64,000 bases of DNA. Origin: Patescibacteria group bacterium (GTDB lineage: Bacteria > Patescibacteriota > Saccharimonadia > UBA4664 > SCTI01). Below are positions 11,684 to 57,347 of the stretch, one piece after another. The position numbers and the translations under genes are program-made. The notes below the pieces were generated by a model, which did no database searches, had not been told where the DNA came from, and saw only the letters and a list, made by a program, of their open reading frames with translations. Within the stretch, counting starts at the first letter, position 1; each line of letters starts with the position of its first letter. Location: the NCBI GenBank assembly GCA_004297735.1, contig SCTI01000002.1:64160-128159 (forward strand). The letters are read 5' to 3'.

Positions 11684-13369
11684 TCACTGAATACCCTTTA
11701 GCACCAGCTGCAGCGTTGATTTACCTTGGTACTGATTGTGTTCTAATAAAGCATGTACCGCCACCTCTTGGCCGGAGCGAAGATTGGGATAGTCTTGGGC
11801 CAAGTTAAAGCCGACCGACTCAAAAATCAATCCTTCGGGGCTAGCTAATCGTAACTTAAGATGCTGCTGGTTTTTACCAATAGTATCGAGGGACACCACC
11901 TTGAGGTTGCGAACCTCGAACACCGGCTGGGTGTTGCCCTGACCAAACGGTTCCAGCTGAGCTAGGGCATGGTACAGCTCCCAGTTCAGCTGGTTGGCGT
12001 CATCAAGATCAATATCGGCAACCCGGTCATTGGTGACCTCAAGCTCCGGCTCAACCTCCAGAAAGTGTTCATTGAGCCCCTGTCGTAACAGATTGATGTT
12101 GTCGGCCGGCAAGGTGAAACCAGCGGCCCCGGCATGCCCTCCAAACCGATCAAACAGCTCGGCGTTGGCGGTGATGCCGTCAATTAGAGGGTAGCCCCCA
12201 GCGCTACGGCCAGACCCCTTGGCTACGCCGTCTCTTAGTTCTAGGACCAAAGCTGGCTTACCCCAGCTTTCGGCCAGCTTAGAAGCCACAATACCCACCA
12301 CTCCGGCCGGCCAGCTACTGTCAGCCAGCACCAGCACCGGATCGCTGGCGTAATCGGCCGCTAGCGCGTTGGCCTCTTCAAAGATACGCTGCTGCTCCAG
12401 TTGGCGCTGATGGTTGAGCTCTTCGAGCTGAAAAGCCAACTGCTGCGCCACAATGGGATCCTTAGTCAGCAATAGCTCTAAGCTGAAGTTGGCATGCTCC
12501 ATCCGACCGGCGGCATTTAAGCGCGGTCCCAGCACAAAACCAATCTGGAACGCCCGCAGCGATTCCGGCTCAACCCCAGCACTTTGCATTAAAGCCACCA
12601 GCCCGACCCGCTTGGTTTTTTGCAGCACCACCAGGCCGTACTTTACCAGGGCACGATTCTCGCCCACTAGCGGCATAACATCACAAACGGTGCCCAGCGC
12701 TACCAGATCAAGTAGCCATTTTTCTTGGCCAACATCCGGCATTCCGGTGCGACTCTGCAGCGCCCGCACCAGCGCAAAGGCTACCCCTACGCCTGCCAGC
12801 TCCTTAAACGGATACTCGTCCCCCGGGCGCTTAGGGTTAACCACCGCTACCGCCTGTGGTATTTGATCCGGGACCTCATGATGATCGGTGATAACCATGT
12901 CGATGCCATGTTCGGCGGCCCAAGCCGCCTCGGCCACCGCGGTTATACCGCAATCAACCGTCAGCACCAGGGTGACGCCCTGGGCCGCTAGCTGCTCTAA
13001 AGCCGCTTGGTTCACACCATAGCCCTCTTTGTAGCGATCCGGTATGTAGCTGAGCGGCTCCAATCCATGAGCCTCCAGCACCTCAACCATCAAAGCGGTT
13101 GAGGACACCCCGTCTATATCGTAATCGCCATAAACCGCCACCTTCTCGCCGGCCACAATCGCACGCTGCAACCGCTCAACCGCCTTGGTCATATCGGTCA
13201 TCAAAAAGGGGTCGGCCAGGTCACGGTGGTAGTCGGGGCGCAAAAAGCGATCAATCGCCTCTTCGCCTTCGATGCCACGCTTGCGCAACAAGTCGCGAAC
13301 CAGCGGTGGGAGTTCACTGGTCGACACCATGGTTTGGTCTATATTTGTACTCGAATCATAACCACTCAT
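11684..13369 (-). CDS. recJ: Single-stranded-DNA-specific exonuclease RecJ
   Basis: 561 aa with DHH and DHHA1 motifs (VITDHH). Confidence 0.9.
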   Translation of the reverse strand: MSGYDSSTNIDQTMVSTSELPPLVRDLLRKRGIEGEEAIDRFLRPDYHRDLADPFLMTDMTKAVERLQRAIVAGEKVAVYGDYDIDGVSSTALMVEVLEAHGLEPLSYIPDRYKEGYGVNQAALEQLAAQGVTLVLTVDCGITAVAEAAWAAEHGIDMVITDHHEVPDQIPQAVAVVNPKRPGDEYPFKELAGVGVAFALVRALQSRTGMPDVGQEKWLLDLVALGTVCDVMPLVGENRALVKYGLVVLQKTKRVGLVALMQSAGVEPESLRAFQIGFVLGPRLNAAGRMEHANFSLELLLTKDPIVAQQLAFQLEELNHQRQLEQQRIFEEANALAADYASDPVLVLADSSWPAGVVGIVASKLAESWGKPALVLELRDGVAKGSGRSAGGYPLIDGITANAELFDRFGGHAGAAGFTLPADNINLLRQGLNEHFLEVEPELEVTNDRVADIDLDDANQLNWELYHALAQLEPFGQGNTQPVFEVRNLKVVSLDTIGKNQQHLKLRLASPEGLIFESVGFNLAQDYPNLRSGQEVAVHALLEHNQYQGKSTLQLVLKGIQ

Positions 13370-13452
13370 CTTGGCCTAAGTATACAGCACATTTAAGAAC
13401 TAAATAATTGCTCGGTAGCGGCCCACACCGGAATGTGTAGGCCGCTCAATGA

Positions 13453-13854
13453 CTAGAACCAGGTGTTGTCTACGACCGAACCGTACGGCAGACCAACTCC
13501 TGGAGGCATGTTCAGGCGATACTTCGCCGCCTCTTCCTGCCTCTCCCACCGCTCGAGCAACCCAATCACTCGGTGACAGAACGACTGATCCTCTATCGAG
13601 CAGTCGATCATGGCCTGATGGTTGGCCCACCAGGTTGCGCGGGCGGTGGACGGGTCGTAAACCCGCCCGTCAGCGTTGGGGCTGCACTTGAGCACCCACT
13701 CCAGCGCGACGCACTCGATGTAGGTCAGCCCGGCCGCTACGAAGTCGCAGCTGCCGTCGGCACGAAGATGCAACTGGTAGCGACGGTGCGCCTCGCGAAG
13801 CGATGGCGTGGGTCGCAGCTGCCGCTTGATGGCCTTGAACAAACTACTCAGCAT
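13453..13854 (-). CDS. Hypothetical protein, member B of a tandem three-paralog family (about 133 aa; internal ATG preceded by a GGAGGAGA RBS)
   Basis: Shares RRY-x5-A[ED]G and V[IT]xxL[DAE][RW]W[DLE] blocks with the two upstream ORFs; start overlaps stop of A (ACATGCTGA). Confidence 0.6.
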   Translation of the reverse strand: MLSSLFKAIKRQLRPTPSLREAHRRYQLHLRADGSCDFVAAGLTYIECVALEWVLKCSPNADGRVYDPSTARATWWANHQAMIDCSIEDQSFCHRVIGLLERWERQEEAAKYRLNMPPGVGLPYGSVVDNTWF

Positions 13855-14231
13855 GTCGTCTCCTCCAGTCGACCAGGCTGATTGACGGTACGAGCTTGGC
13901 TTGAGGCCAGCTCGATCTGACTCTGCCCTTCCCTGCTGTACATCAGCCACCAGTCGAGCACCTTGATGACGTCGATCGCCATCATGCGCGTTGCGTCGGT
14001 AGCCAATGGAGAATCACGTATGCCCGTCCAGTGATCGAGTAGTCGGTGGATCTGGCTCCAGCCTACAGGCTTAAGCTGGCAGTAGGCGGTTAACTCAGCC
14101 TTGGTAACCACTACATGCAGACTAAACGACTCATCCTGCTCGGCCCGCTCGATATACCGAGCCACCTTCTCGTAAGCGATTGGCCAAGCGCGGTGGTTGG
14201 TCCACCACTGGCGCAGTGCCCTAAAGTGCAT
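13848..14231 (-). CDS. Hypothetical protein, member A of the tandem three-paralog family (127 aa)
   Basis: GAGGAGG RBS; paralogous blocks as above; high-GC segment. Confidence 0.6.
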   Translation of the reverse strand: MHFRALRQWWTNHRAWPIAYEKVARYIERAEQDESFSLHVVVTKAELTAYCQLKPVGWSQIHRLLDHWTGIRDSPLATDATRMMAIDVIKVLDWWLMYSREGQSQIELASSQARTVNQPGRLEETTC

Positions 14232-14246
14232 GTCAGCCTCCTCGAC

Positions 14247-14621
14247 CTAGCAGGTCGTTTTTCCCGTCATGCCACTCGGTGCCACCAACGCCTCGGTAGT
14301 ACTGGTCGTGCCACTACGAGCCTGGCGGTCCCAACGAGCCAAAACCGCCGTAACAAAACCTCGGCGCAAAGAGATGCTGGGATCTGTGTGATCCAGAATC
14401 TCCACTCGAGCCGCGAAAGCTTGCTGGGCATTTGAAAACCCATCCCGCCACTGCGCGGCATCGAATTCGCGGCGCAGCAGCCAGACCGAGCGAATTTCGC
14501 CCTCTGCAGCGGCGTACCTCCTGAGCGCTACCTCCTCACTGGCGTACCGACAGGTCGGTAGCACAACCAGGGCGCGAAGAAACTGGCGCCATCCAGGCCA
14601 AACGATCTTCATCAGACTCAC
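14247..14621 (-). CDS. Hypothetical protein, member C of the tandem three-paralog family (124 aa)
   Basis: Paralogous blocks; like A it ends in ...TTC with a duplicated ACGACNTGCT junction. Confidence 0.6.
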   Translation of the reverse strand: MSLMKIVWPGWRQFLRALVVLPTCRYASEEVALRRYAAAEGEIRSVWLLRREFDAAQWRDGFSNAQQAFAARVEILDHTDPSISLRRGFVTAVLARWDRQARSGTTSTTEALVAPSGMTGKTTC

Positions 14622-14734
14622 CCCTTTCGGGCGTTGTAAAGGACTTGCGTACTGCTTACGGTACTACACGTTACTGAGCAGAATACGCCTACCAGCAGGT
14701 AAAATCAATCCGATTATGCCTGCTTAATAAATAT

Positions 14735-15016
14735 TTAATTAACGCGGCGTTTGGAGGCTTGGGATTTAAGGACAATGCTTTGGAGCTCGCGGTAAAGAGC
14801 AAAGCGCTGGTTGGCGCTGTAAACAACGGTGTTTGACTCCTTTGAGGACTTAACAAAGCCAATTGATTCAAGCTTTTTGAGTTCGCGCTGAACGTTACCG
14901 GGATCTTCGCGGATCATCTGGGCCAACGATCTAACATGCGCCTTTACATCCGGATACTTGGTAAAGACGGTGATAATTTTACGGCGGGTTTTAGATGTGA
15001 TAAACACGTCTAGCAT
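14735..15016 (-). CDS. Small winged-helix (ArsR/MarR-like) transcriptional regulator
   Basis: 93 aa; helix-turn-helix plus wing pattern (..SLAQMIREDPGNVQRELKKLESIGFV..). Confidence 0.55.
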   Translation of the reverse strand: MLDVFITSKTRRKIITVFTKYPDVKAHVRSLAQMIREDPGNVQRELKKLESIGFVKSSKESNTVVYSANQRFALYRELQSIVLKSQASKRRVN

Positions 15017-15057
15017 TGTGACTTCTACAACTCTTTATAGAAGCTATACTACCGGAG

Positions 15058-15960
15058 CTATGGCCGTTTGGCAATCCGCTTTTGCTTGTAATTATGCCAA
15101 CTTACCAGCAAAGGTGCGGCGTTAAAGATTGAGGAGTAGGTGCCGGCAGCAATACCTATTAGGAGTGCCAACACAAACTGCTGAATCGACTGGCCGCCAA
15201 ACAGATAAAGTGCCAGAAGTGTTAAAAGAACGGTTAATGAAGTGTTGAGTGAACGAGCCAAGGTTTCAAGAATACTGTTGTTGACGATTTGCTCAAACTC
15301 CCCACGTTGGCGGCGCAGATTCTCGCGAATTCGGTCAAACACCACAATGGTATCGTGCACCGAAAAACCAATTACGGTTAAGATTGCCGTAACAAACAAG
15401 GCATCAATCTCAACCTCAAAGAAGACTCCCAGTAGCGAGAACACTCCCAGTAGCAAAAAGGCATCGTGGAGCATGGTAATAATAGCAGTGACACCAAAGT
15501 TCCAACTGGTCATTGGCGGTGGTACATTGCGGAAGGCAAAGGCGATGTACAGCACAATAGCCAGCGAGGCCAGAGCGATGCTAATAACGGCCTTTTTAGT
15601 AATGTCGGCACTAACCGATGGACCAACGTTTTCGTAACGTACCTCTGGATGACCGGAGCCTTGTAGCTGCGAGGATAATGTCTGCCGATCAAGCTGTTGG
15701 CGCTTCACATCATCGCTACTGCTACGGTAACGGATCAGGGTGTTGTTGCCGGCACTAATAACGGTAACATCTTTGAGCTGTTGCTGATCGGCGATACGCA
15801 GCACCTCGACCTGCTCTACCCCACCCTGCACCTCCATTAACTGACCGCCCCTAAAATCGATACCCAACTTAAGGCCATGCAACATTAATGAGATTGCGCC
15901 TGGTACAATGATGGCCAGCGAAATAGCGTACCACAGCTTGCGTCGTCCGATTATGTTCAT
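15058..15960 (-). CDS. secF: Protein translocase subunit SecF
   Basis: 300 aa, six TM, SecD/SecF family. Confidence 0.88.
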   Translation of the reverse strand: MNIIGRRKLWYAISLAIIVPGAISLMLHGLKLGIDFRGGQLMEVQGGVEQVEVLRIADQQQLKDVTVISAGNNTLIRYRSSSDDVKRQQLDRQTLSSQLQGSGHPEVRYENVGPSVSADITKKAVISIALASLAIVLYIAFAFRNVPPPMTSWNFGVTAIITMLHDAFLLLGVFSLLGVFFEVEIDALFVTAILTVIGFSVHDTIVVFDRIRENLRRQRGEFEQIVNNSILETLARSLNTSLTVLLTLLALYLFGGQSIQQFVLALLIGIAAGTYSSIFNAAPLLVSWHNYKQKRIAKRP

Positions 15961-24244: not shown

Positions 24245-26056
24245 CTATTTATACTTGTAAATTGAATTGGTAATATCGGCCTTTTCCAGCCTCCAGTATG
24301 GAACATCTTCATTGGTGCGAAACTCTAGCTTAGGCAGTAGCTCCTGCTTAACTTGAGCCTGATCGGCGGGTGAAAGGCTTTTAAATTCCTTGATATTTTC
24401 CAGGTGCTTACTTAAAACCGTGGCCTTTGAGTCTAAACTTCCACTATCGTAATCCTTAATCACATCCGGATAGCTATGATCTGGGTCGTAGGTAAGCGTT
24501 AGGCGCTTGTCAGCCAGCCCCGCCCCAGGGTAATCCGGTTGCTCCACATGAGATCCACCAAGGCTAACATGCTGCGCCTCGTGTACCGGTGCGTCCGGGG
24601 TTAATGCATCAACAATGCGGGTAGCGCCCGCCGCCAATGCTGCCGCGCTTGCGATCACAACGCCGATCCGATTGACTCGCTTATCGGACTTAAGGCGGGC
24701 AGACTCAGCTTCCATTTGACCAAGCAAAGTCTTACTTAAACCATCAGTGAGATTTCCCTCACTTTCGATATTCTGGTTTAGCTGACTGCTGCCAGCCTCC
24801 GACAAAACTGAAATTAAGGCTTTATCCTCATCGCTCAATTCGGTATCAGGCCGATCGGTAAAATGGCCTAAGGTATTGGCTATTTTTTGAAGATCAGGAT
24901 CATCGCTAACCTCATCTTTATCTAAATAAATACCTTGCTTTTCGGCGGAATCAAGCAGCCCCTTACCCTTCTTCGCCCTCCGGTCCACCATCGCTTCGGC
25001 GCCAGCTTTACCACTTAGGTATGCTCCACCAGCCCGGAGCGCAAAAACCCCGGCTGCAGCCACGCCCAGCCCACTAGCCAACAGCACACCACCACCTACG
25101 CCCATTGCCACACCGGCGCCAATACGTATCTTCTTATTCTGCTGCCACCAACGCACAAACTTAGCACCTGCTCCCAACTGCTTTTCACGAGCCTCTTGCT
25201 CAAGGGTTGAACGCTGCGCCATTTCGTAGGCTAAACGCTGCGTTATGAGTCGAGACTGATCTTCTTTGGTGAAAGCTTCGCCACTGTTAAGGGCTTTGAG
25301 TGCCGCTTCGGCTACCTCATTAATAATTGTTTTGTTAATCTCATTGACATAGGCCGCCTCCAGCTCTGACAGCTCCTCTTTGTCAACCTTGGCAAAGATA
25401 GTCCGGCGTTCATAAGCCCGCATTGCCACCAACTCGGCCCTTGTTCGAACTAACTGCTGATGCTTTGATAAATCGGGGTCATCAAAATCAATGTGAGTGG
25501 CTAGCTCATCTTTATGCACAGTAAATATTCGGTCGTACATGCTTTGAGCCCGCCCCAGCAAGACTTTTGGTGTCCACTTTTTAGATTCGCCGGTTGGTTC
25601 ATTCGACTTTGTCTCATCTGGATTTGGGCTGGCTGGCTGGTTGGTTGTTCCTGCGCCCTCATCTTCTTCAACCTGACGCCTCCAGTCGTCAAGACCATTC
25701 ACTGGCGATGCGTCGGGGTTAGGGAGAGGAGCGGGAGGGTTATCCTGCTGTTCTAGCTGTTGGCGCCAGTCGTCTAGGCCAGTATTGACCGGCTCCGGCT
25801 CACCTTTAATGTGTCGCATAAGAGCTTGCTTTAATTGATTATCGTCCGGTACGAGTAATGTCTCCTCCTGGACGTACTCAAGGGCCTTGCGAGTCGCCTC
25901 GGCGCTATAGGGATGATTATGCAGGTACTCATTAACAGTAGCGCGGAGCTCCCCATTCTCCAAAGCATCAAGTTGCTCAGCCTCAGGGGTGACTGTTTCG
26001 GGACCAGTTTGGGGATGTTGACGCTCCGTCATAGATAGATACCTTACAGGAATCAT
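24245..26056 (-). CDS. Large hypothetical membrane-associated protein with internal GLDDWR(Q/R)Q(L/V)E repeats and a Gly/Ala-rich TM segment
   Basis: 603 aa ORF, backbone-like GC; repeated motif NxGLDDWRxQxExxD twice. Confidence 0.6.
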   Translation of the reverse strand: MIPVRYLSMTERQHPQTGPETVTPEAEQLDALENGELRATVNEYLHNHPYSAEATRKALEYVQEETLLVPDDNQLKQALMRHIKGEPEPVNTGLDDWRQQLEQQDNPPAPLPNPDASPVNGLDDWRRQVEEDEGAGTTNQPASPNPDETKSNEPTGESKKWTPKVLLGRAQSMYDRIFTVHKDELATHIDFDDPDLSKHQQLVRTRAELVAMRAYERRTIFAKVDKEELSELEAAYVNEINKTIINEVAEAALKALNSGEAFTKEDQSRLITQRLAYEMAQRSTLEQEAREKQLGAGAKFVRWWQQNKKIRIGAGVAMGVGGGVLLASGLGVAAAGVFALRAGGAYLSGKAGAEAMVDRRAKKGKGLLDSAEKQGIYLDKDEVSDDPDLQKIANTLGHFTDRPDTELSDEDKALISVLSEAGSSQLNQNIESEGNLTDGLSKTLLGQMEAESARLKSDKRVNRIGVVIASAAALAAGATRIVDALTPDAPVHEAQHVSLGGSHVEQPDYPGAGLADKRLTLTYDPDHSYPDVIKDYDSGSLDSKATVLSKHLENIKEFKSLSPADQAQVKQELLPKLEFRTNEDVPYWRLEKADITNSIYKYK

Positions 26057-26189: not shown

Positions 26190-27206
26190 CTACCAGCCGG
26201 CGGGATCGCCCATGGGGGCGATCGGGATGGCCGGCTGGGCCGGTGCAGGGGCCGGCACCGCGGGTGCTCCGTCGTCCGGAACTCCCGAGCTGTCGGGCCC
26301 GGTCGGCTCAGCGACATCGTCATCGGTGATGACGATCTTCTTGGCCGCCTTCTTGGCCTTGCGCCGGTCCCGCCATCCCGGCATCGAGTTGGCGAGCGAA
26401 GCCGCGAACTCCGGGTCTTCCGCCAGCCTACTCTTGAGCTGGGCAGACAGACCGTCGAGCCAGCCGTCGTCCTCGGCGAGGGCCCGGCCGACCTCGGTGG
26501 CAAAGGCCACCGGGTCGAGCTGATCGACCCGATCGGACAGAGCGGTCAGCTGATCCAGGAACCCGGGGTCATCCTCGGTGGCCTGGATGGTCTGAGCCAG
26601 CTCATTGAGACTGGTCAGAACCTCGGCCATCTGATCGCCAGACGGCGGCTGGCCGGGATCTCCGGTGCCACCGGCGGGAACCGGAGCGAGCGGCGGGCCC
26701 GGATCGGGGACCAGATCCGCCAGCTCCTTGCGCACCTCGCGCTCCGCCTGCGCCCTTCGGCGCTGCTGGAGCGCCACCTCATCGTCGAGCTCGAGCTCCT
26801 TAGCCCGAGCATCGATCACCCGGTCGGCGGCCTGCCTGAGGGAGTGCTCCCCCGCCTGGCGCTCCCGGCGAACCTCATGTCGCAGCGCGTCGAGCGAGGG
26901 CGGCTGGGGTGCCGTCTGCCGGAACTGGTCCAGCATCGACGCGACAGCCTCCTGAGCGGCCTGGCTGGCGATGCGCTCGGCCTCCTGCCGGGTCACACCG
27001 CCATCCTCGCGCCGCGAACGGCGCTGGGAGCCCTGCCTCGGAGTCGGGGACTCCTCAGCGGCAGGGGTGGGTGCCACCGGCGGTTCGGCCGGCGGAGCGT
27101 CCTGCGAGGGCGCCCCATCCGAGGCCGGAGCCTCGTCGGGGAATGCGTCATCGAGGGCGGAGGCGAGGTCGCCGCCGCCCGTTCGTGTACCGGCCATGTT
27201 GTTCAT
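26190..27206 (-). CDS. Hypothetical acidic Pro/Ala-rich, largely disordered protein (338 aa); island gene 3
   Basis: High-GC ORF, ATGA overlap with the upstream gene. Confidence 0.6.
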   Translation of the reverse strand: MNNMAGTRTGGGDLASALDDAFPDEAPASDGAPSQDAPPAEPPVAPTPAAEESPTPRQGSQRRSRREDGGVTRQEAERIASQAAQEAVASMLDQFRQTAPQPPSLDALRHEVRRERQAGEHSLRQAADRVIDARAKELELDDEVALQQRRRAQAEREVRKELADLVPDPGPPLAPVPAGGTGDPGQPPSGDQMAEVLTSLNELAQTIQATEDDPGFLDQLTALSDRVDQLDPVAFATEVGRALAEDDGWLDGLSAQLKSRLAEDPEFAASLANSMPGWRDRRKAKKAAKKIVITDDDVAEPTGPDSSGVPDDGAPAVPAPAPAQPAIPIAPMGDPAGW

Positions 27207-28540
27207 GCCTCCTGGGCAGTCGAGTTGAACTTCTTCTGAACCGCCGCCTCAACTTCGACGGCGACCTTCTTGATCACGTGGTTCGGAGCCTTCCCGCCAA
27301 AGTTGGCCTGGAGGAATCCGATCCACGCACGGGGGTCCTGCGCCGCTTCGCGGTTGCCCTTGAAGCTGGGGATGAGCTCACGGATCAGCGCTTGCTGAAT
27401 CCGCTCCTTCCACTGCTCGTCGGTCAGCGCCTCTTCAGCAGAGGAAGCCGGCGACGAACCGTTGACGGTCTGGGCTTGCTGGCCCATCGCTGGAGCGGTA
27501 CGGGACCGTAGTTCGGCCATCCGAGCCTTGAATCCAGCCGTGTCATCACTGACCTTCTCGCCAGCCTGAACCTCCTGTTCAGCCTGTTCCTTTAGCTCCT
27601 CGAAAGAAGCGTGGCGATGCAGGAGCCGCATCACAGCTTGCGTCAGCATGCCGGCGTTACGCGCCGGATAGCCGGCAACCAACATGGCCACCCGGAAGTA
27701 CCAGGACGTGACCGACGAAACCGAGGGATGGTTATCCCGCGAGTTCGTCGAGCCATGAACGTTCTCGTACTTCTCGCGCTGCATGTTGACCTTCAGGTCA
27801 CCCTGAAGAACGCTGGAGTAGCTGACGAAGGCGCCCTCCACCTTGAAGTGAGGGTCATTTTCGGGGTCGTGCCGGTAAGGCATCGATACTTCTGCGACGC
27901 TTAGCTCCGGCAATGCAGCCGTAACCAGCTCCAGCGCTTCTTCCCGACTCAGATCACGAGGATCATCCTTCGGGAAGCCCATGCGCCGAATTGCTTCTTG
28001 CACCATCTCCGGGTGCTTGCTGAGCATGTTGGGCGGATCGCCCAGATCTTGGACTGTGAGGGCCACGATGGGCTCCTCCTTTCCGGCGGGTCGCCCCGCC
28101 CTCTTGGCTTGATCAGGCCGCGCTGAGCGCGGTGCATCTTGGCGAGGACGGCATTGCCGCCTCCAGCTGCGAATCTGAGCACGAAGCTCACCATCCGACA
28201 CCGAGAACAGCGCCTTGGCTACCTCCTCCCGCTTACCCTGATACACAGGATGGCGGATACCCAGGACCCTCATCAGATCCTGTAGGTAATTGAAGAAAGC
28301 AACCTCGATCTCCTCCACCGAAGCGGCGGAAACCGGGCCGTTCTGGTCTTCCGGAACGACGAACTCGTACTTATTCCACACCACCACCCCGCGGTCGCGG
28401 CGGAAGTGAAAGTCCGACTGACGCCTCAGCGCTCGGTGGCGCAGTTGGCAAAGGACCTCCAGGGCTCCTTCTCTGTCGAGCTCAAGAGGATGAATTGAAT
28501 TCAACCCCAAAGCTGCAACAATGAAGGAGTGGTTGTACAT
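27203..28540 (-). CDS. Hypothetical protein (about 445 aa); island gene 2 (internal ATG with GGAGA RBS preferred over the longer ORF-track start at 28651)
   Basis: High-GC ORF; no recognisable family motif by eye. Confidence 0.6.
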   Translation of the reverse strand: MYNHSFIVAALGLNSIHPLELDREGALEVLCQLRHRALRRQSDFHFRRDRGVVVWNKYEFVVPEDQNGPVSAASVEEIEVAFFNYLQDLMRVLGIRHPVYQGKREEVAKALFSVSDGELRAQIRSWRRQCRPRQDAPRSARPDQAKRAGRPAGKEEPIVALTVQDLGDPPNMLSKHPEMVQEAIRRMGFPKDDPRDLSREEALELVTAALPELSVAEVSMPYRHDPENDPHFKVEGAFVSYSSVLQGDLKVNMQREKYENVHGSTNSRDNHPSVSSVTSWYFRVAMLVAGYPARNAGMLTQAVMRLLHRHASFEELKEQAEQEVQAGEKVSDDTAGFKARMAELRSRTAPAMGQQAQTVNGSSPASSAEEALTDEQWKERIQQALIRELIPSFKGNREAAQDPRAWIGFLQANFGGKAPNHVIKKVAVEVEAAVQKKFNSTAQEA

Positions 28541-28691
28541 CGTTTCTCCGTTGGTAACGGGTCTATCCGATGTCACGTGCCGCTCCTTTCGCGGTCGTGG
28601 GTTTGCAGTAGATCTCAACAGACTGTATTGGGTGCTTTTACACCACAACATAGCCCATGAATATCTATCTCTATTAAGCTGTCAAAGAGTT

Positions 28692-40158: not shown

Positions 40159-40272
40159 ATCCGGCACCGACCTACTTTCCCCATAAAGAGTATCATCGGC
40201 GCTGAGGAGCTTAACTTCGGTGTTCGGGATGGGAACCGGTGTGGCCTCCTCGCTAAAAGCACCGGGCTACCA
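40159..40272 (-). rRNA. rrf: 5S ribosomal RNA
   Basis: Reverse complement matches the bacterial 5S core (..CACACCGGTTCCCATCCCGAACACCGAAGTTAAGC..GCGCCGATGATAC..). Confidence 0.9.
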
Positions 40273-40289: not shown

Positions 40290-43550
<3,261 letters not shown>

Positions 43551-43960
43551 TTACGATTCGTTTGACGAGCGATGTATGGTTACAAATTCATGTTTCCACC
43601 CATCACTCATTGGTTGGTATTGCATCTGTTTATGATCGTAAAAATTCATAAACAGTACCCAAAACAATTACATGGGAAGTAATTGTTTCGTCTTAAAATT
43701 CATTTAATTTTCAAAAAACAACTCCGCGGTTTGTACCTCGCGGAGCCCACATTCAAACAGACAAATTTACCTAGCCCGAGAACGTGCCTCCGTTAGTGCT
43801 GGTTAATTGTCTACTCATATATGAGCTCCAATAGTCGAAATTAAGAGTACCAAAATAACCAGGTGGTGTAAAGAGGTTAATTGTGACAAAAATAACAACG
43901 CCCCTCGCAGGTATTTACAACACTACGAGTGACGCTGAAATGTCGGGATAAATTAAGCGA

Positions 43961-45826: not shown

Positions 45827-45903
45827 GGGCTTGTAGCTCAGCTGGTTAGAGCGCGTCACTGATAATGACGAGGTCGCAGGTTCGAGTCCTGCCAAGCCCA
45901 CCA
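45827..45903 (+). tRNA. tRNA-Ile (anticodon GAT)
   Basis: Cloverleaf with 7 bp acceptor stem, GGTTCGAGTCC T-arm, CTGATAA anticodon loop, CCA end; TTGCCA-17-TTAAAT promoter upstream. Confidence 0.92.
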
Positions 45904-45924
45904 TTTTTGTATCTATCCCCACTT

Positions 45925-46001
45925 GGGGCATTAGCTCAGCTGGCTAGAGCACCTGCTTTGCAAGCAGGGGGTCATCGGTTCGAATCCGATATGCTCCACC
46001 A
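45925..46001 (+). tRNA. tRNA-Ala (anticodon TGC) with G3:U70 identity pair
   Basis: Cloverleaf, CTTTGCAA anticodon loop, GGTTCGAATCC T-arm, CCA end. Confidence 0.92.
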
Positions 46002-51990: not shown

Positions 51991-52514
51991 TACTTGGCCG
52001 CTCCGGTTAATGCTTTTTTAACACTAGCCGCATCAGCCTTAGGACTGATCTCGCCACGAGTGACCTCGGTGGTAGCGGTGGCAACCACCTCACCCATCTC
52101 TCTAAGCAGCTCAGCCTGCGCCTTAGCCTGCTGGGAGGCCAAATGGCGCTCACCTTGGGCGACGGCCGCCTGAGCGTTCCCACGAGCCTCCGCAACGATC
52201 TGCTTGGCCTCATGCTCGGCTTCCAAGCGGGCGTCGGCAATCAACTGCTTAGCCTCGGTCTTGGCAGCCGCCAGCACCTTGTCGCGCTCATCCTGAGCCT
52301 GGGCCGCCTCAAGCTTGGCCTGCTGAGCCTGCTGCAAACTAGCTTCAATTGCCTTACGGCGCTTTTCGAGCAGGTTGATGATTGGCGGAAAGGCATACTT
52401 TTGCAGCACCCAGTACAGGATGGCAAAGTTGATCAACTGGAAGACCAGCGCCCCCAGGTTAATCCCTAGTGCGCCCAGTCCCCCGGTACTTTCGGCTGCA
52501 AACATGAACTGCAT
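51990..52514 (-). CDS. atpF: ATP synthase Fo b subunit
   Basis: N-terminal TM plus long Ala/Gln/Glu coiled coil. Confidence 0.85.
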   Translation of the reverse strand: MQFMFAAESTGGLGALGINLGALVFQLINFAILYWVLQKYAFPPIINLLEKRRKAIEASLQQAQQAKLEAAQAQDERDKVLAAAKTEAKQLIADARLEAEHEAKQIVAEARGNAQAAVAQGERHLASQQAKAQAELLREMGEVVATATTEVTRGEISPKADAASVKKALTGAAK

Positions 52515-52547
52515 CTTAAATTATTTTCTCCTTAAACCCCTTCATCC

Positions 52548-55835: not shown

Positions 55836-57347
<1,512 letters not shown>

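What the first reader, a model, noticed from the sequence alone, without database searches (positions are those of the whole stretch)
13440..14640. Tandem triplication of a small (about 125-135 aa) uncharacterised protein family in a GC-rich segment between recJ and a small wHTH regulator
Three consecutive minus-strand ORFs (13453-13854, 13848-14231, 14247-14621) share conserved blocks: an N-terminal Trp-rich stretch, RRY-x5-A(E/D)G followed by a hydrophobic strand, LDH/IDC-x-D/E, and a C-terminal V(I/T)xxL(D/A/E)(R/W)W(D/L/E)(R/M)(Q/Y) helix. This is visible on direct alignment. Two members end with ...TTC* and the junction ACGACNTGCT(G/A) is duplicated, showing unit duplication including the junction. 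Each has a strong SD and stop/start overlaps couple A to B. Segment GC is about 62% against about 54% in the flanks. I do not recognise the family.
Basis: seen in the sequence. Interest (0 to 1): 0.7.

Follow-up and report, generated by a model that had tools for sequence, protein, structure and literature searches.

The report
Variable orphan small-gene cassette in Saccharibacteria
Three real but very divergent sister genes for small helical proteins of unknown function sit in a self-contained, strain-variable cassette found only in one narrow group of Saccharibacteria; this is a new orphan family with one rapidly varying member, not a recent triplication and not a known system.

Summary
The three minus-strand ORFs exist: A 13453-13854, B 13848-14231, C 14247-14612. 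Compared directly with each other they are not above shuffled controls. Orthologues and intermediates from related Saccharimonadia genomes change this. A and C join one family (profile-profile P 2.7e-6, 0/600 shuffles). B joins weakly (p about 0.002), supported by an independent AlphaFold model with the same five helices in register.

This is not a recent triplication. A, B and C are old subtypes, each with its own orthologues, and there is no DNA similarity between the units. Related genomes carry A plus either B or C; only this window has all three.

The cassette has its own conserved promoter/leader and a covarying terminator hairpin. It lies between a wHTH gene and recJ, which are directly adjacent in 99 of 108 Saccharibacteria loci.

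No relative was found in 1.84 billion representative proteins, nor in the Pfam, PHROGs, PADLOC, NCBIfam, PDB, phage or plasmid searches.

A and B are under purifying selection but evolve faster than their neighbours. The middle of A falls to 52-65% nucleotide identity between strains whose flanks are 93-100% identical.

Function is unknown. My best guess is non-enzymatic binding proteins with strain-specific specificity.

The parts
14622..14734 (-). Cassette promoter and 5' leader: -35 TTGATT (14703-14708), 17-nt spacer with a variable centre, -10 TATTCT (14680-14685), then invariant blocks GTGTAGT and CAAGT.C.TACAA and the SD AAAGGGGTGAG
   Evidence: A seven-locus alignment shows long invariant runs although synonymous sites of the flanking genes are near saturation. 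The same TTGAC-N17-TAT(T/C)CT arrangement is seen in L004, L002 and L001. Promoter function is inferred, not shown. The consensus scanner did not flag it, because it matches 8 of 12 positions against a threshold of 9.
14247..14612 (-).
   Evidence: Annotated product P0019. End-to-end similarity to L164u: z 8.1, 0/3000 shuffles, Gumbel p 1.8e-5. Its 5' and 3' ends align at DNA level with the first gene of L161, L164 and L081. The whole unit (14241-14642) is absent from L162, L163 and L165.
14243..14257 (-). 6-bp hairpin CGACCT-GCT-AGGTCG spanning the stop codon of C; it overlaps the first copy of the junction repeat ACGACCTGCTAG (14247-14258)
   Evidence: Its role is unknown.
13848..14231 (-). 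Gene B (B subtype), 127 aa; its stop overlaps the start of A (ATGCTGA)
   Evidence: Orthologues in L162, L163, L165 and P0028 at about 60-63% aa identity, dN/dS 0.16-0.22. Profile against the rest of the family: score 22.3 versus 11.9+-2.4 in shuffles, 0/600, p about 0.002, collinear over 95 columns. An AlphaFold model built from B-type sequences only has the same five helices as A.
13848..13859 (-). Second copy of the junction repeat, ACGACATGCTGA (B stop overlapping A start)
   Evidence: The same junction joins B-type to A in L162, L163 and L165. It joins the C/D-type gene directly to A in L164. The B unit is therefore bounded by the two repeat copies.
13453..13854 (-). Gene A (A subtype), 133 aa. 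It has a conserved N-terminal third, a hypervariable middle (about residues 54-97, helix 4 region), a conserved helix 5 and a conserved disordered tail ending in an aromatic residue
   Evidence: Nine orthologues (L081, L161-L165 = P0018 and P0020-23, and P0027) at 50-73% identity to winA where measured; dN/dS 0.24-0.56. Mean pN of the middle is 0.41 against 0.21 and 0.24 for the ends. AlphaFold pLDDT 78.8.
13417..13446 (-). 12-bp G+C-rich hairpin 6 nt after the stop of A; probably a terminator or mRNA-end structure of the cassette
   Evidence: dG -24.4 kcal/mol, z -4.3. Conserved in 5 loci, with 4 pairs changed on both sides and kept.
13370..13416 (-). Invariant recJ upstream region with -10-like TATACT (13379-13384) about 9 nt before the recJ ATG; recJ appears to keep its own promoter
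   Evidence: The TATACT-N8-12-ATG arrangement is also present in L003, L001, L004 and L005, whether or not the cassette is there.

Best explanation
What it is (shown):
- The window comes from a Saccharimonadia (Patescibacteria) genome.
- Positions 13417-14734 are a self-contained cassette on the minus strand: its own promoter/leader, three translationally linked genes C-B-A, and a terminator-like hairpin.
- The cassette lies between a wHTH gene and recJ, which are normally directly adjacent.
- A, B and C are anciently diverged paralogues of an orphan family found only in a narrow clade and only at this site.
- Family members are soluble proteins of about 105-135 aa, Trp-rich in this window, predicted to form a five-helix bundle. 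The only invariant residues are E-x2-A in helix 3 and L-x2-W in helix 5.
- Array content is polymorphic between related genomes (A with B, A with C/D, or all three). The B unit is bounded by a 12-nt junction repeat.

How it most likely works (inferred):
- The invariant residues look like packing residues and there is no catalytic-looking motif, so the proteins probably act by binding, not catalysis.
- The conserved stop/start coupling suggests co-production, perhaps as hetero-oligomers of A with an upstream paralogue.
- The middle of A (helix 4 region) is a strain-specific specificity surface. Deeply diverged alleles are exchanged by recombination within the conserved ends of the gene.
- This pattern is typical of proteins that recognise or neutralise a variable partner (immunity-like, inhibitor or self/non-self discrimination).
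- The partner is unknown.
For: Source and annotation.

Synteny:
- wHTH abuts recJ in 99 of 108 loci. Inserts occur only in the close clade.
- The family HMM finds 18 members among 15,593 ORFs of 165 loci plus the window, all of them in this slot.

Restricted distribution:
- A profile search of 1.84 billion representatives gives 8 hits, all from this clade.
- Word-indexed searches of 5.8 billion proteins return only clade members.

Coding status: dN/dS is 0.24-0.56 for A and 0.16-0.22 for B, against 0.09 or less for recJ and the wHTH gene.

Paralogy:
- C versus L164u p 1.8e-5; L081X versus L164u p 4e-4.
- A-type versus C/D plus others: hhalign P 2.7e-6; empirical 0/600 shuffles, p 1e-7.
- B versus the rest: p 0.002.
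- The leave-one-out HMM ranks the left-out member first among non-training ORFs for A/L081Y, C, L004a and L002a.

Structure:
- A helices: 2-13, 19-28, 45-57, 59-83, 87-114.
- B helices: 3-13, 20-32, 44-56, 58-73, 79-116, from an alignment with no A-type sequence.
- The R-Y, E-x2-A and L-x2-W motifs fall in the same helices in both models.

Polymorphism and junctions.

Hypervariable middle of A:
- L162 and L165 are 93-100% identical through secF, the wHTH gene and most of B, 52-65% inside A, and 86-94% again at its 3' end.
- L162 and L163 are identical for the first 53 codons of A, then 63-73% identical.

Own regulatory signals.

Soluble, no transmembrane segment.
Against: - Hetero-oligomerisation is inferred only from translational coupling.
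- B's sequence link is weak. Its best local match to A is in a different register: A 69-80 against B 3-14.
- dN/dS in the variable middle is below 1 (0.2-0.8). This points to imported old alleles, not demonstrable positive selection.
- Several comparison contigs are short metagenome assemblies (0.98-1.8 kb).
- The AlphaFold alignments are shallow (12 and 2 sequences).
Confidence: 0.5

Rival explanations
1. Toxin-antitoxin-like addiction module: the upstream gene (B or C/D type) is an antitoxin and A is the toxin. The module was inserted as a selfish element between housekeeping genes.
For: - Small coupled gene pairs with 7-nt stop/start overlap.
- A is always last, and the upstream partner is interchangeable.
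- Own promoter with a palindromic element in the spacer.
- Patchy distribution.
Against: - The two components are homologous to each other, unlike type II TA pairs (established knowledge).
- No DNA-binding or known toxin/antitoxin domain in Pfam, NCBIfam or PADLOC.
- L002 has a single family gene.
- The variable partner in this locus is A's own middle region, not only the upstream gene.
Confidence: 0.1
2. Lineage-specific accessory or regulatory factors of the surrounding housekeeping operon. For example, modulators of RecJ, RelA or the wHTH protein, with the conserved aromatic-terminated tail of A docking onto a partner the way SSB C-terminal tails dock onto RecJ.
For: - Fixed position immediately upstream of recJ-relA in every genome that has the family.
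- The disordered tail of A-type proteins is conserved, ending ...D-x-T-(W/Q)-F or ...T-Q-M-F.
- That SSB tails end in acidic residues plus a terminal Phe and bind RecJ comes from my own knowledge and was not tested here.
Against: - RecJ, RelA and the wHTH protein are highly conserved (dN/dS 0.09 or less), whereas A's middle region is hypervariable. A conserved partner does not explain that.
- Most Saccharibacteria do without the cassette.
- The cassette is insulated by its own promoter and hairpin, and recJ keeps its own -10 element.
- The second tail allele (FFGSTTGYTQMF) is not acidic.
Confidence: 0.12
3. The three ORFs are not all paralogues. B in particular could be an unrelated orphan gene that shares only size, composition (Trp/Arg-rich, helical) and location with A and C.
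For: - Direct pairwise comparisons are at noise level.
- B-type against the C/D, L004 or L002 profiles alone is not significant: P 0.15-0.65.
- The leave-one-out HMM did not recover B.
- All-helical predictions can look alike.
Against: - B against the pooled non-B profile gives a collinear 95-column alignment that beats all 600 column shuffles.
- The four family-invariant residues and the R-Y motif fall in the same helices of an independently predicted B model.
- In L164 a C/D-type gene occupies B's slot with the identical junction.
Confidence: 0.12
4. Young, nearly neutral genes (possibly born de novo in this intergenic slot) with no important function. The variability would reflect relaxed constraint.
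For: - No homologue anywhere outside a narrow clade and a single locus.
- Loss of B or C in relatives.
- Other Saccharibacteria have unrelated small ORFs in the same gap.
- Elevated dN/dS relative to the neighbours.
Against: - dN/dS is clearly below 1 over saturated dS for A and B.
- Conserved regulatory sequences and a covarying hairpin.
- Conserved coupling junctions.
- The variability of A is sharply localised between conserved ends rather than diffuse.
Confidence: 0.1
5. Targeted hypermutation of A by a diversity-generating retroelement (these are common in Patescibacteria, from my own knowledge).
For: A localised hypervariable stretch within an otherwise conserved gene.
Against: - No second (template) copy of any part of the array in the 64-kb window.
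- No reverse transcriptase among the neighbouring genes.
- Identity falls to about 52%, far below what adenine-only mutagenesis gives.
- The variable part is in the middle of the gene and about 250 bp long.
Confidence: 0.02

Closest known systems
Tandem arrays of immunity proteins of polymorphic toxin systems ('orphan' immunity clusters; my own knowledge of Zhang, Aravind and colleagues, 2012)
   Same: Small soluble non-enzymatic proteins. Tandem arrays of highly divergent paralogues. Copy number and content vary between close strains. Fast evolution. Often no recognisable domain.
   Different: No toxin gene or toxin remnant nearby. No match to any Imm or defence model. Genes are translationally coupled. 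The family is fixed at a single chromosomal slot in one clade.
Specificity ('pherotype') loci such as staphylococcal agr or Bacillus comQXP (my own knowledge)
   Same: A sharply bounded hypervariable segment, with deeply diverged alleles, flanked by near-identical sequence in closely related strains and reshuffled by recombination.
   Different: No peptide precursor, processing enzyme or sensor kinase is present. The variable segment lies within one small helical protein.
Type II toxin-antitoxin modules
   Same: Two small overlapping genes, own promoter, patchy distribution, inserted between housekeeping genes.
   Different: The components are paralogues of each other. There is no DNA-binding antitoxin domain or known toxin fold. 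One to three genes per array.
WXG100/Esx pairs (Pfam PF06013)
   Same: Small Trp-containing helical proteins encoded as coupled tandem paralogue pairs, with conserved C-terminal tails.
   Different: Five helices rather than a helical hairpin. No W-x-G turn motif. No Pfam match. I know of no type VII secretion genes in Saccharibacteria; this was not tested here.
Diversity-generating retroelement target proteins
   Same: Localised hypervariability in a Patescibacteria gene.
   Different: No template repeat and no reverse transcriptase nearby. The divergence is not adenine-specific.

Membership tests
The orphan family defined here (wHTH-recJ slot family of a Saccharimonadia clade) | Significant profile similarity to the other members: gene A | tested here: met
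   A-type profile against C/D plus others: hhalign P 2.7e-6, 88% probability, collinear over 76 columns. 0/600 shuffles, p 1e-7. Leave-out HMM E 0.0016 and 0.082 among 10,332 ORFs.
The orphan family defined here | Significant profile similarity to the other members: gene C | tested here: met
   C against L164u p 1.8e-5, end to end. C/D profile against A-type: 0/600 shuffles, p 6e-5.
The orphan family defined here | Significant profile similarity to the other members: gene B | tested here: inconclusive
   B-type against the pooled rest: P 0.0036 by hhalign, 0/600 shuffles (p about 0.002), collinear over 95 columns. It is not significant against the sub-profiles alone, and the first leave-one-out HMM did not recover it.
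The orphan family defined here | Invariant E-x2-A in helix 3 and L-x2-W in helix 5; five-helix order | tested here: met
   Invariant in the alignments of 8, 11 and 12 members. The AlphaFold models of A and B place the motifs in equivalent helices. C was not modelled.
The orphan family defined here | Location between the wHTH gene and recJ, same strand | tested here: met
   All 18 members found lie in this gap.
Type II toxin-antitoxin module | Antitoxin with a DNA-binding domain (RHH, HTH, AbrB, etc.) and a toxin of a known superfamily | tested here: not met
   No Pfam, NCBIfam or PADLOC match for any member.
Type II toxin-antitoxin module | Two unrelated components | tested here: not met
   The upstream and downstream genes are homologous.
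Diversity-generating retroelement target | Template repeat/variable repeat pair and a nearby reverse transcriptase | tested here: not met
   No repeat of the array within 64 kb. The neighbours are secDF, the wHTH gene, recJ, relA and hisS. The rest of the 495-kb contig was not available.
WXG100 / Esx | About 100-aa helical hairpin with a W-x-G turn; Pfam PF06013 | tested here: not met
   No Pfam hit at E <= 10. The models have five helices.
LuxR/GerE or sigma-70 region 4 HTH (considered because of the 'LT-x2-E-x2-A-L' motif) | Match to the HTH profiles | tested here: not met
Polymorphic-toxin immunity proteins | Adjacent or remnant toxin gene, or a match to a known Imm family | tested here: not met
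   No neighbouring toxin. No Pfam hit. Functional immunity is not testable with these tools.
Phage- or plasmid-borne gene | Relatives in phage, viral-contig or plasmid collections | tested here: not met
   tblastn against phages: none. Plasmids: only E 0.2-0.4 noise. IMG/VR: none. PHROGs: none.

The most novel reading that the evidence does not exclude
The cassette is a previously unrecognised strain-specificity module of Saccharibacteria. Coupled paralogous helical proteins would form a complex whose hypervariable helix-4 surface on A recognises or neutralises a matching variable partner, such as a toxin from the host or from competitors, a phage protein, or a kin-recognition factor. The family may have arisen de novo in this intergenic slot and diversified by in-place duplication and recombination.
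Probability: 0.2. Interest if true: 0.7.

Novelty: new variant of a known kind. Interest (0 to 1): 0.4.

Why it matters
- Saccharibacteria are ultra-small epibionts with very reduced genomes, so genes they keep and diversify are candidates for host, competitor or phage interactions.
- This cassette is a clean, compact example of a clade-restricted family, with no relative among 1.84 billion representative proteins.
- It shows presence/absence polymorphism of paralogues. One member has a sharply bounded allelic hypervariable segment between near-identical strains.
- If that segment is a specificity surface, the locus would be a handle on strain-level conflict or recognition in a group where almost nothing of that kind is known. 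It would also be a tractable case of orphan-family birth and diversification.
- If not, it is one more lineage-specific hypothetical family, of which Patescibacteria genomes hold many.

Tried and rejected
- A structured RNA instead of genes: no Rfam match in 13300-15100, even at E <= 1.
- Genes on the other strand: the plus-strand ORFs are short and have no orthologues.
- Known domains: Pfam, PHROGs, PADLOC, NCBIfam and PDB sequences all gave nothing above noise.
- Recent duplication: no DNA similarity between the units.
- DGR: no template repeat.
- Mobile-element origin: no relatives in phages, plasmids or IMG/VR. The family alignment was too divergent for a pattern scan.
- Exact-sequence contig look-up of B: not on record.
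- Further family copies elsewhere in the window or in 165 related loci: none. A recurrent weak hit at window 51993-52520 stayed at E 0.2-1.6 and dropped out with the full HMM.
- Literature search for a described hypervariable locus near recJ in Saccharibacteria: nothing relevant.
- Correlation between the A tail allele and the upstream partner type: none visible among six loci.
Full report
**Source and layout.**
- Exact-sequence look-up identifies the ORFs as hypothetical proteins TAK88869 and TAK88870. The neighbours are TAK88868 (RecJ) and TAK88872 (ArsR-type regulator). All come from a 494,657-bp contig of a Patescibacteria MAG.
- Relatives of the regulator are all Saccharimonadia/Saccharibacteria.
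- On the minus strand the gene order is secD, secF, wHTH (14735-15016), C, B, A, recJ (11684-13369), relA.

**Checking the observation.**
- The three ORFs, their Shine-Dalgarno sequences, the 7-nt B/A overlap (ATGCTGA), the shared ...TTC* ends and the twice-occurring junction ACGACNTGCTRR are all present.
- C most likely starts at the ATG at 14612. That is the annotated start and it matches the orthologous leaders.
- GC is 60.0% against a window mean of 54.3%. This puts the segment in the top 5.4% of equal-sized windows, a modest excess.
- The claimed similarity is not visible statistically on direct comparison. BLASTP E-values are 0.011, 38 and 0.034. Smith-Waterman against shuffles gives p = 0.013, 0.32 and 0.065.

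**Synteny shows what the segment is.**
- I used the conserved wHTH protein as an anchor and fetched 160 loci from genome and metagenome collections.
- In 99 of the 108 loci that have recJ downstream, the wHTH gene and recJ are adjacent, with a gap of 150 bp or less and often overlapping.
- Inserts of 0.5-1.4 kb occur in the window's close relatives. A few distant genomes have gaps holding unrelated small ORFs.
- The wHTH gene is therefore not co-conserved with the family.
- The close relatives carry one to three small same-strand ORFs in the gap:
  - A-type orthologues (50-73% aa identity to the window's A) in L081, L161-L165 and P0027.
  - B-type orthologues (about 62%) in L162, L163, L165 and P0028.
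  - A C/D type in L161 and L164.
  - More distant members in L081 (X), L004 (two genes) and L002 (one gene).
- blastn of the oriented segment shows that L162, L163 and L165 lack exactly the C unit (window 14241-14642).
- L081, L161 and L164 have a C/D-type gene joined to A and lack B.
- Only the window has C, B and A together.
- In L164 the C/D-type gene ends ...RRTTC and overlaps the A start through the same ACGACATGCTGA junction that joins B to A in the window. The 3' end of window C aligns with the L164 gene at DNA level.
- The B unit is therefore bounded by two copies of the 12-nt junction repeat. This fits gain or loss of a unit by recombination at that repeat.
- There is no DNA similarity between the units themselves, so this is not a recent triplication.

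**Are they paralogues?**
- Multiple alignments of 8, 11 and 12 members always give the same invariant columns: E-x2-A and, 45-53 residues later, L-x2-W.
- Pairwise links through intermediates are significant:

| Pair | p |
|---|---|
| C vs L164u (end to end) | 1.8e-5 |
| L164u vs L161u | 1.5e-11 |
| L081X vs L164u | 4e-4 |
| L004a vs L004b | 4e-4 |

- Profile-profile comparison gives A-type against C/D plus others P 2.7e-6 (88% probability, collinear). A-type against L002a gives 2.9e-5.
- Column-shuffle controls that I ran:

| Comparison | Observed score | Shuffles | Reached in 600 | p |
|---|---|---|---|---|
| A-type vs C/D plus others | 39.8 | 11.7+-2.3 | 0 | 1e-7 |
| C/D vs A-type | 28.2 | 11.6+-2.3 | 0 | 6e-5 |
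| B-type vs all non-B | 22.3 | 11.9+-2.4 | 0 | about 0.002 |

- The B alignment is collinear over 95 columns.
- Leave-one-out HMMs ranked the omitted member first among about 10,000 background ORFs for A/L081Y, C, L004a and L002a. They did not recover B.
- B is therefore the weak link in sequence.
- An AlphaFold model of B built from B-type sequences only has core pLDDT 78-94 and helices 3-13, 20-32, 44-56, 58-73 and 79-116.
- The A model has pLDDT 78.8 and helices 2-13, 19-28, 45-57, 59-83 and 87-114.
- The R-Y, E-x2-A and L-x2-W motifs sit in the equivalent helices of both models.
- I take A and C as paralogues with good confidence and B as a probable one.
- Unexplained: the best local A/B match is out of register. 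A 69-80 (ARATWWANHQ) matches B 3-14 (ALRQWWTNHR) with hhalign P about 0.002.

**Are they genes?**
- dN/dS is 0.24-0.56 for A-type and 0.16-0.22 for B-type pairs at largely saturated dS. recJ gives 0.05-0.09 and the wHTH gene 0.06 or less.
- They are coding and constrained, but evolve several-fold faster than their neighbours.
- C is supported by protein-level conservation with L164u where the DNA no longer aligns.
- The proteins are soluble (no hydrophobic segment) with pI about 5-10. In this window they contain 3.8-5.5% Trp, against 0.7% in the long ORFs of the window.

**Regulatory anatomy.**
- The 113 bp between the wHTH stop and C are strongly conserved among seven loci. They contain TTGATT-N17-TAT(T/C)(C/G)T, a variable centre in the spacer, invariant GTGTAGT and CAAGT.C.TACAA blocks, and the SD.
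- L004, L002 and L001 have the same promoter-like arrangement.
- Six nucleotides after the A stop lies a 12-bp G+C hairpin (13417-13446). Its dG is -24.4 kcal/mol with z -4.3. Four of its pairs are changed on both sides and kept across five loci.
- Downstream, recJ keeps a TATACT element about 9 nt before its ATG in all these genomes, with or without the cassette.
- The cassette thus looks like an insulated transcription unit. This is inferred from sequence, not shown.

**Hypervariability of A.**
- Within A-type genes the middle (alignment columns 53-99, helix 4 region) has mean pN 0.41. The ends have 0.21 and 0.24.
- L162 and L165 are 93-100% identical at nucleotide level through secF, the wHTH gene and most of B. 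Identity falls to 52-65% for about 250 bp inside A and returns to 86-94% at its 3' end.
- L162 and L163 are identical through the first 53 codons of A and then drop to 63-73%.
- Both dN and dS are high in the variable part, and dN/dS stays below 1. I read this as exchange of old, deeply diverged alleles by recombination within the conserved ends, not as recent point-mutation selection.
- The disordered tail of A comes in two allelic forms (...PYGSVVDNTWF and ...PFFGSTTGYTQMF). These assort independently of the upstream gene type.
- No template repeat or reverse transcriptase is nearby, so a diversity-generating retroelement is unlikely.

**Comparison with what is known.**
- Nothing matches above noise in Pfam, PHROGs, PADLOC, NCBIfam or PDB sequences.
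- A full HMMER profile search of 1.84 billion representatives gives only 8 hits, all from this clade.
- There are no relatives in phages, plasmids or IMG/VR.
- The closest known kinds are behavioural analogies only: immunity-gene arrays of polymorphic toxin systems, pherotype-type specificity loci and TA modules. Each fails at least one defining feature (see the membership table).

**Mechanism and verdict.**
- Shown: a clade-restricted, polymorphic, insulated cassette of three old paralogues of an orphan five-helix family, one of which carries a bounded allelic hypervariable segment.
- Inferred: non-enzymatic binding proteins, co-produced and possibly heteromeric, with strain-specific recognition or neutralisation of an unknown partner.
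- Interest is moderate. Orphan families are common in Patescibacteria, but the localised hypervariability and clean cassette structure make this one a reasonable candidate for a conflict or recognition function.

Noticed in passing
window 40381-43552 (-), 55838-57346 (-), 40159-40266 (-): The 23S rRNA match spans 3172 nt against a 2925-position model, so about 250 nt are extra (possible insertion or intron). The 16S gene lies 12 kb away from the 23S-5S pair, with protein ORFs and two plus-strand tRNAs (45827-45998) in between, so the rRNA genes are unlinked.
   Followed up: no
window 26190-27206 (-): The most G+C-rich part of the window (67-69% against 54%) encodes a 338-aa low-complexity Pro/Ala/Asp/Glu-rich protein. 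It lies between two other large, charged, repeat-like ORFs (24245-26056 and 27203-28651).
   Followed up: no
L001 6355-6792 and L002 904-1122: Two relatives carry a different small ORF just upstream of recJ. It has a hydrophobic segment and a similar acidic, Gly/Pro-rich C-terminus (GGRGDEPRPPGH / GWGEDRPGHQ) and is unrelated to the family. The same gap hosts other cargo too.
   Followed up: partly
window 13379-13384 and the equivalent positions in L001, L003, L004 and L005: recJ has a conserved TATACT only about 8-12 nt upstream of its ATG and no clear Shine-Dalgarno sequence. This suggests a leaderless or very short-leader recJ mRNA in this clade.
   Followed up: partly
window A residues 69-80 (about 13615-13650) against B residues 3-14 (about 14190-14225): An out-of-register local match, ARATWWANHQ / ALRQWWTNHR, is the best direct A/B similarity (BLASTP E 0.011; hhalign P about 0.002). 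It could be chance, an internal repeat or segment shuffling.
   Followed up: partly
window 14686-14702 and the aligned columns in L081 and L161-L165: The centre of the promoter spacer (CCT-N6/7-GGCG) is hypervariable between otherwise invariant flanks and partly palindromic. It could be an operator whose sequence varies by strain.
   Followed up: no
L163 (983 bp), L164 (1646 bp), L165 (1787 bp): Three independent metagenome contigs break at or just after gene A. This would fit assembly fragmentation caused by strain heterogeneity at this locus.
   Followed up: no
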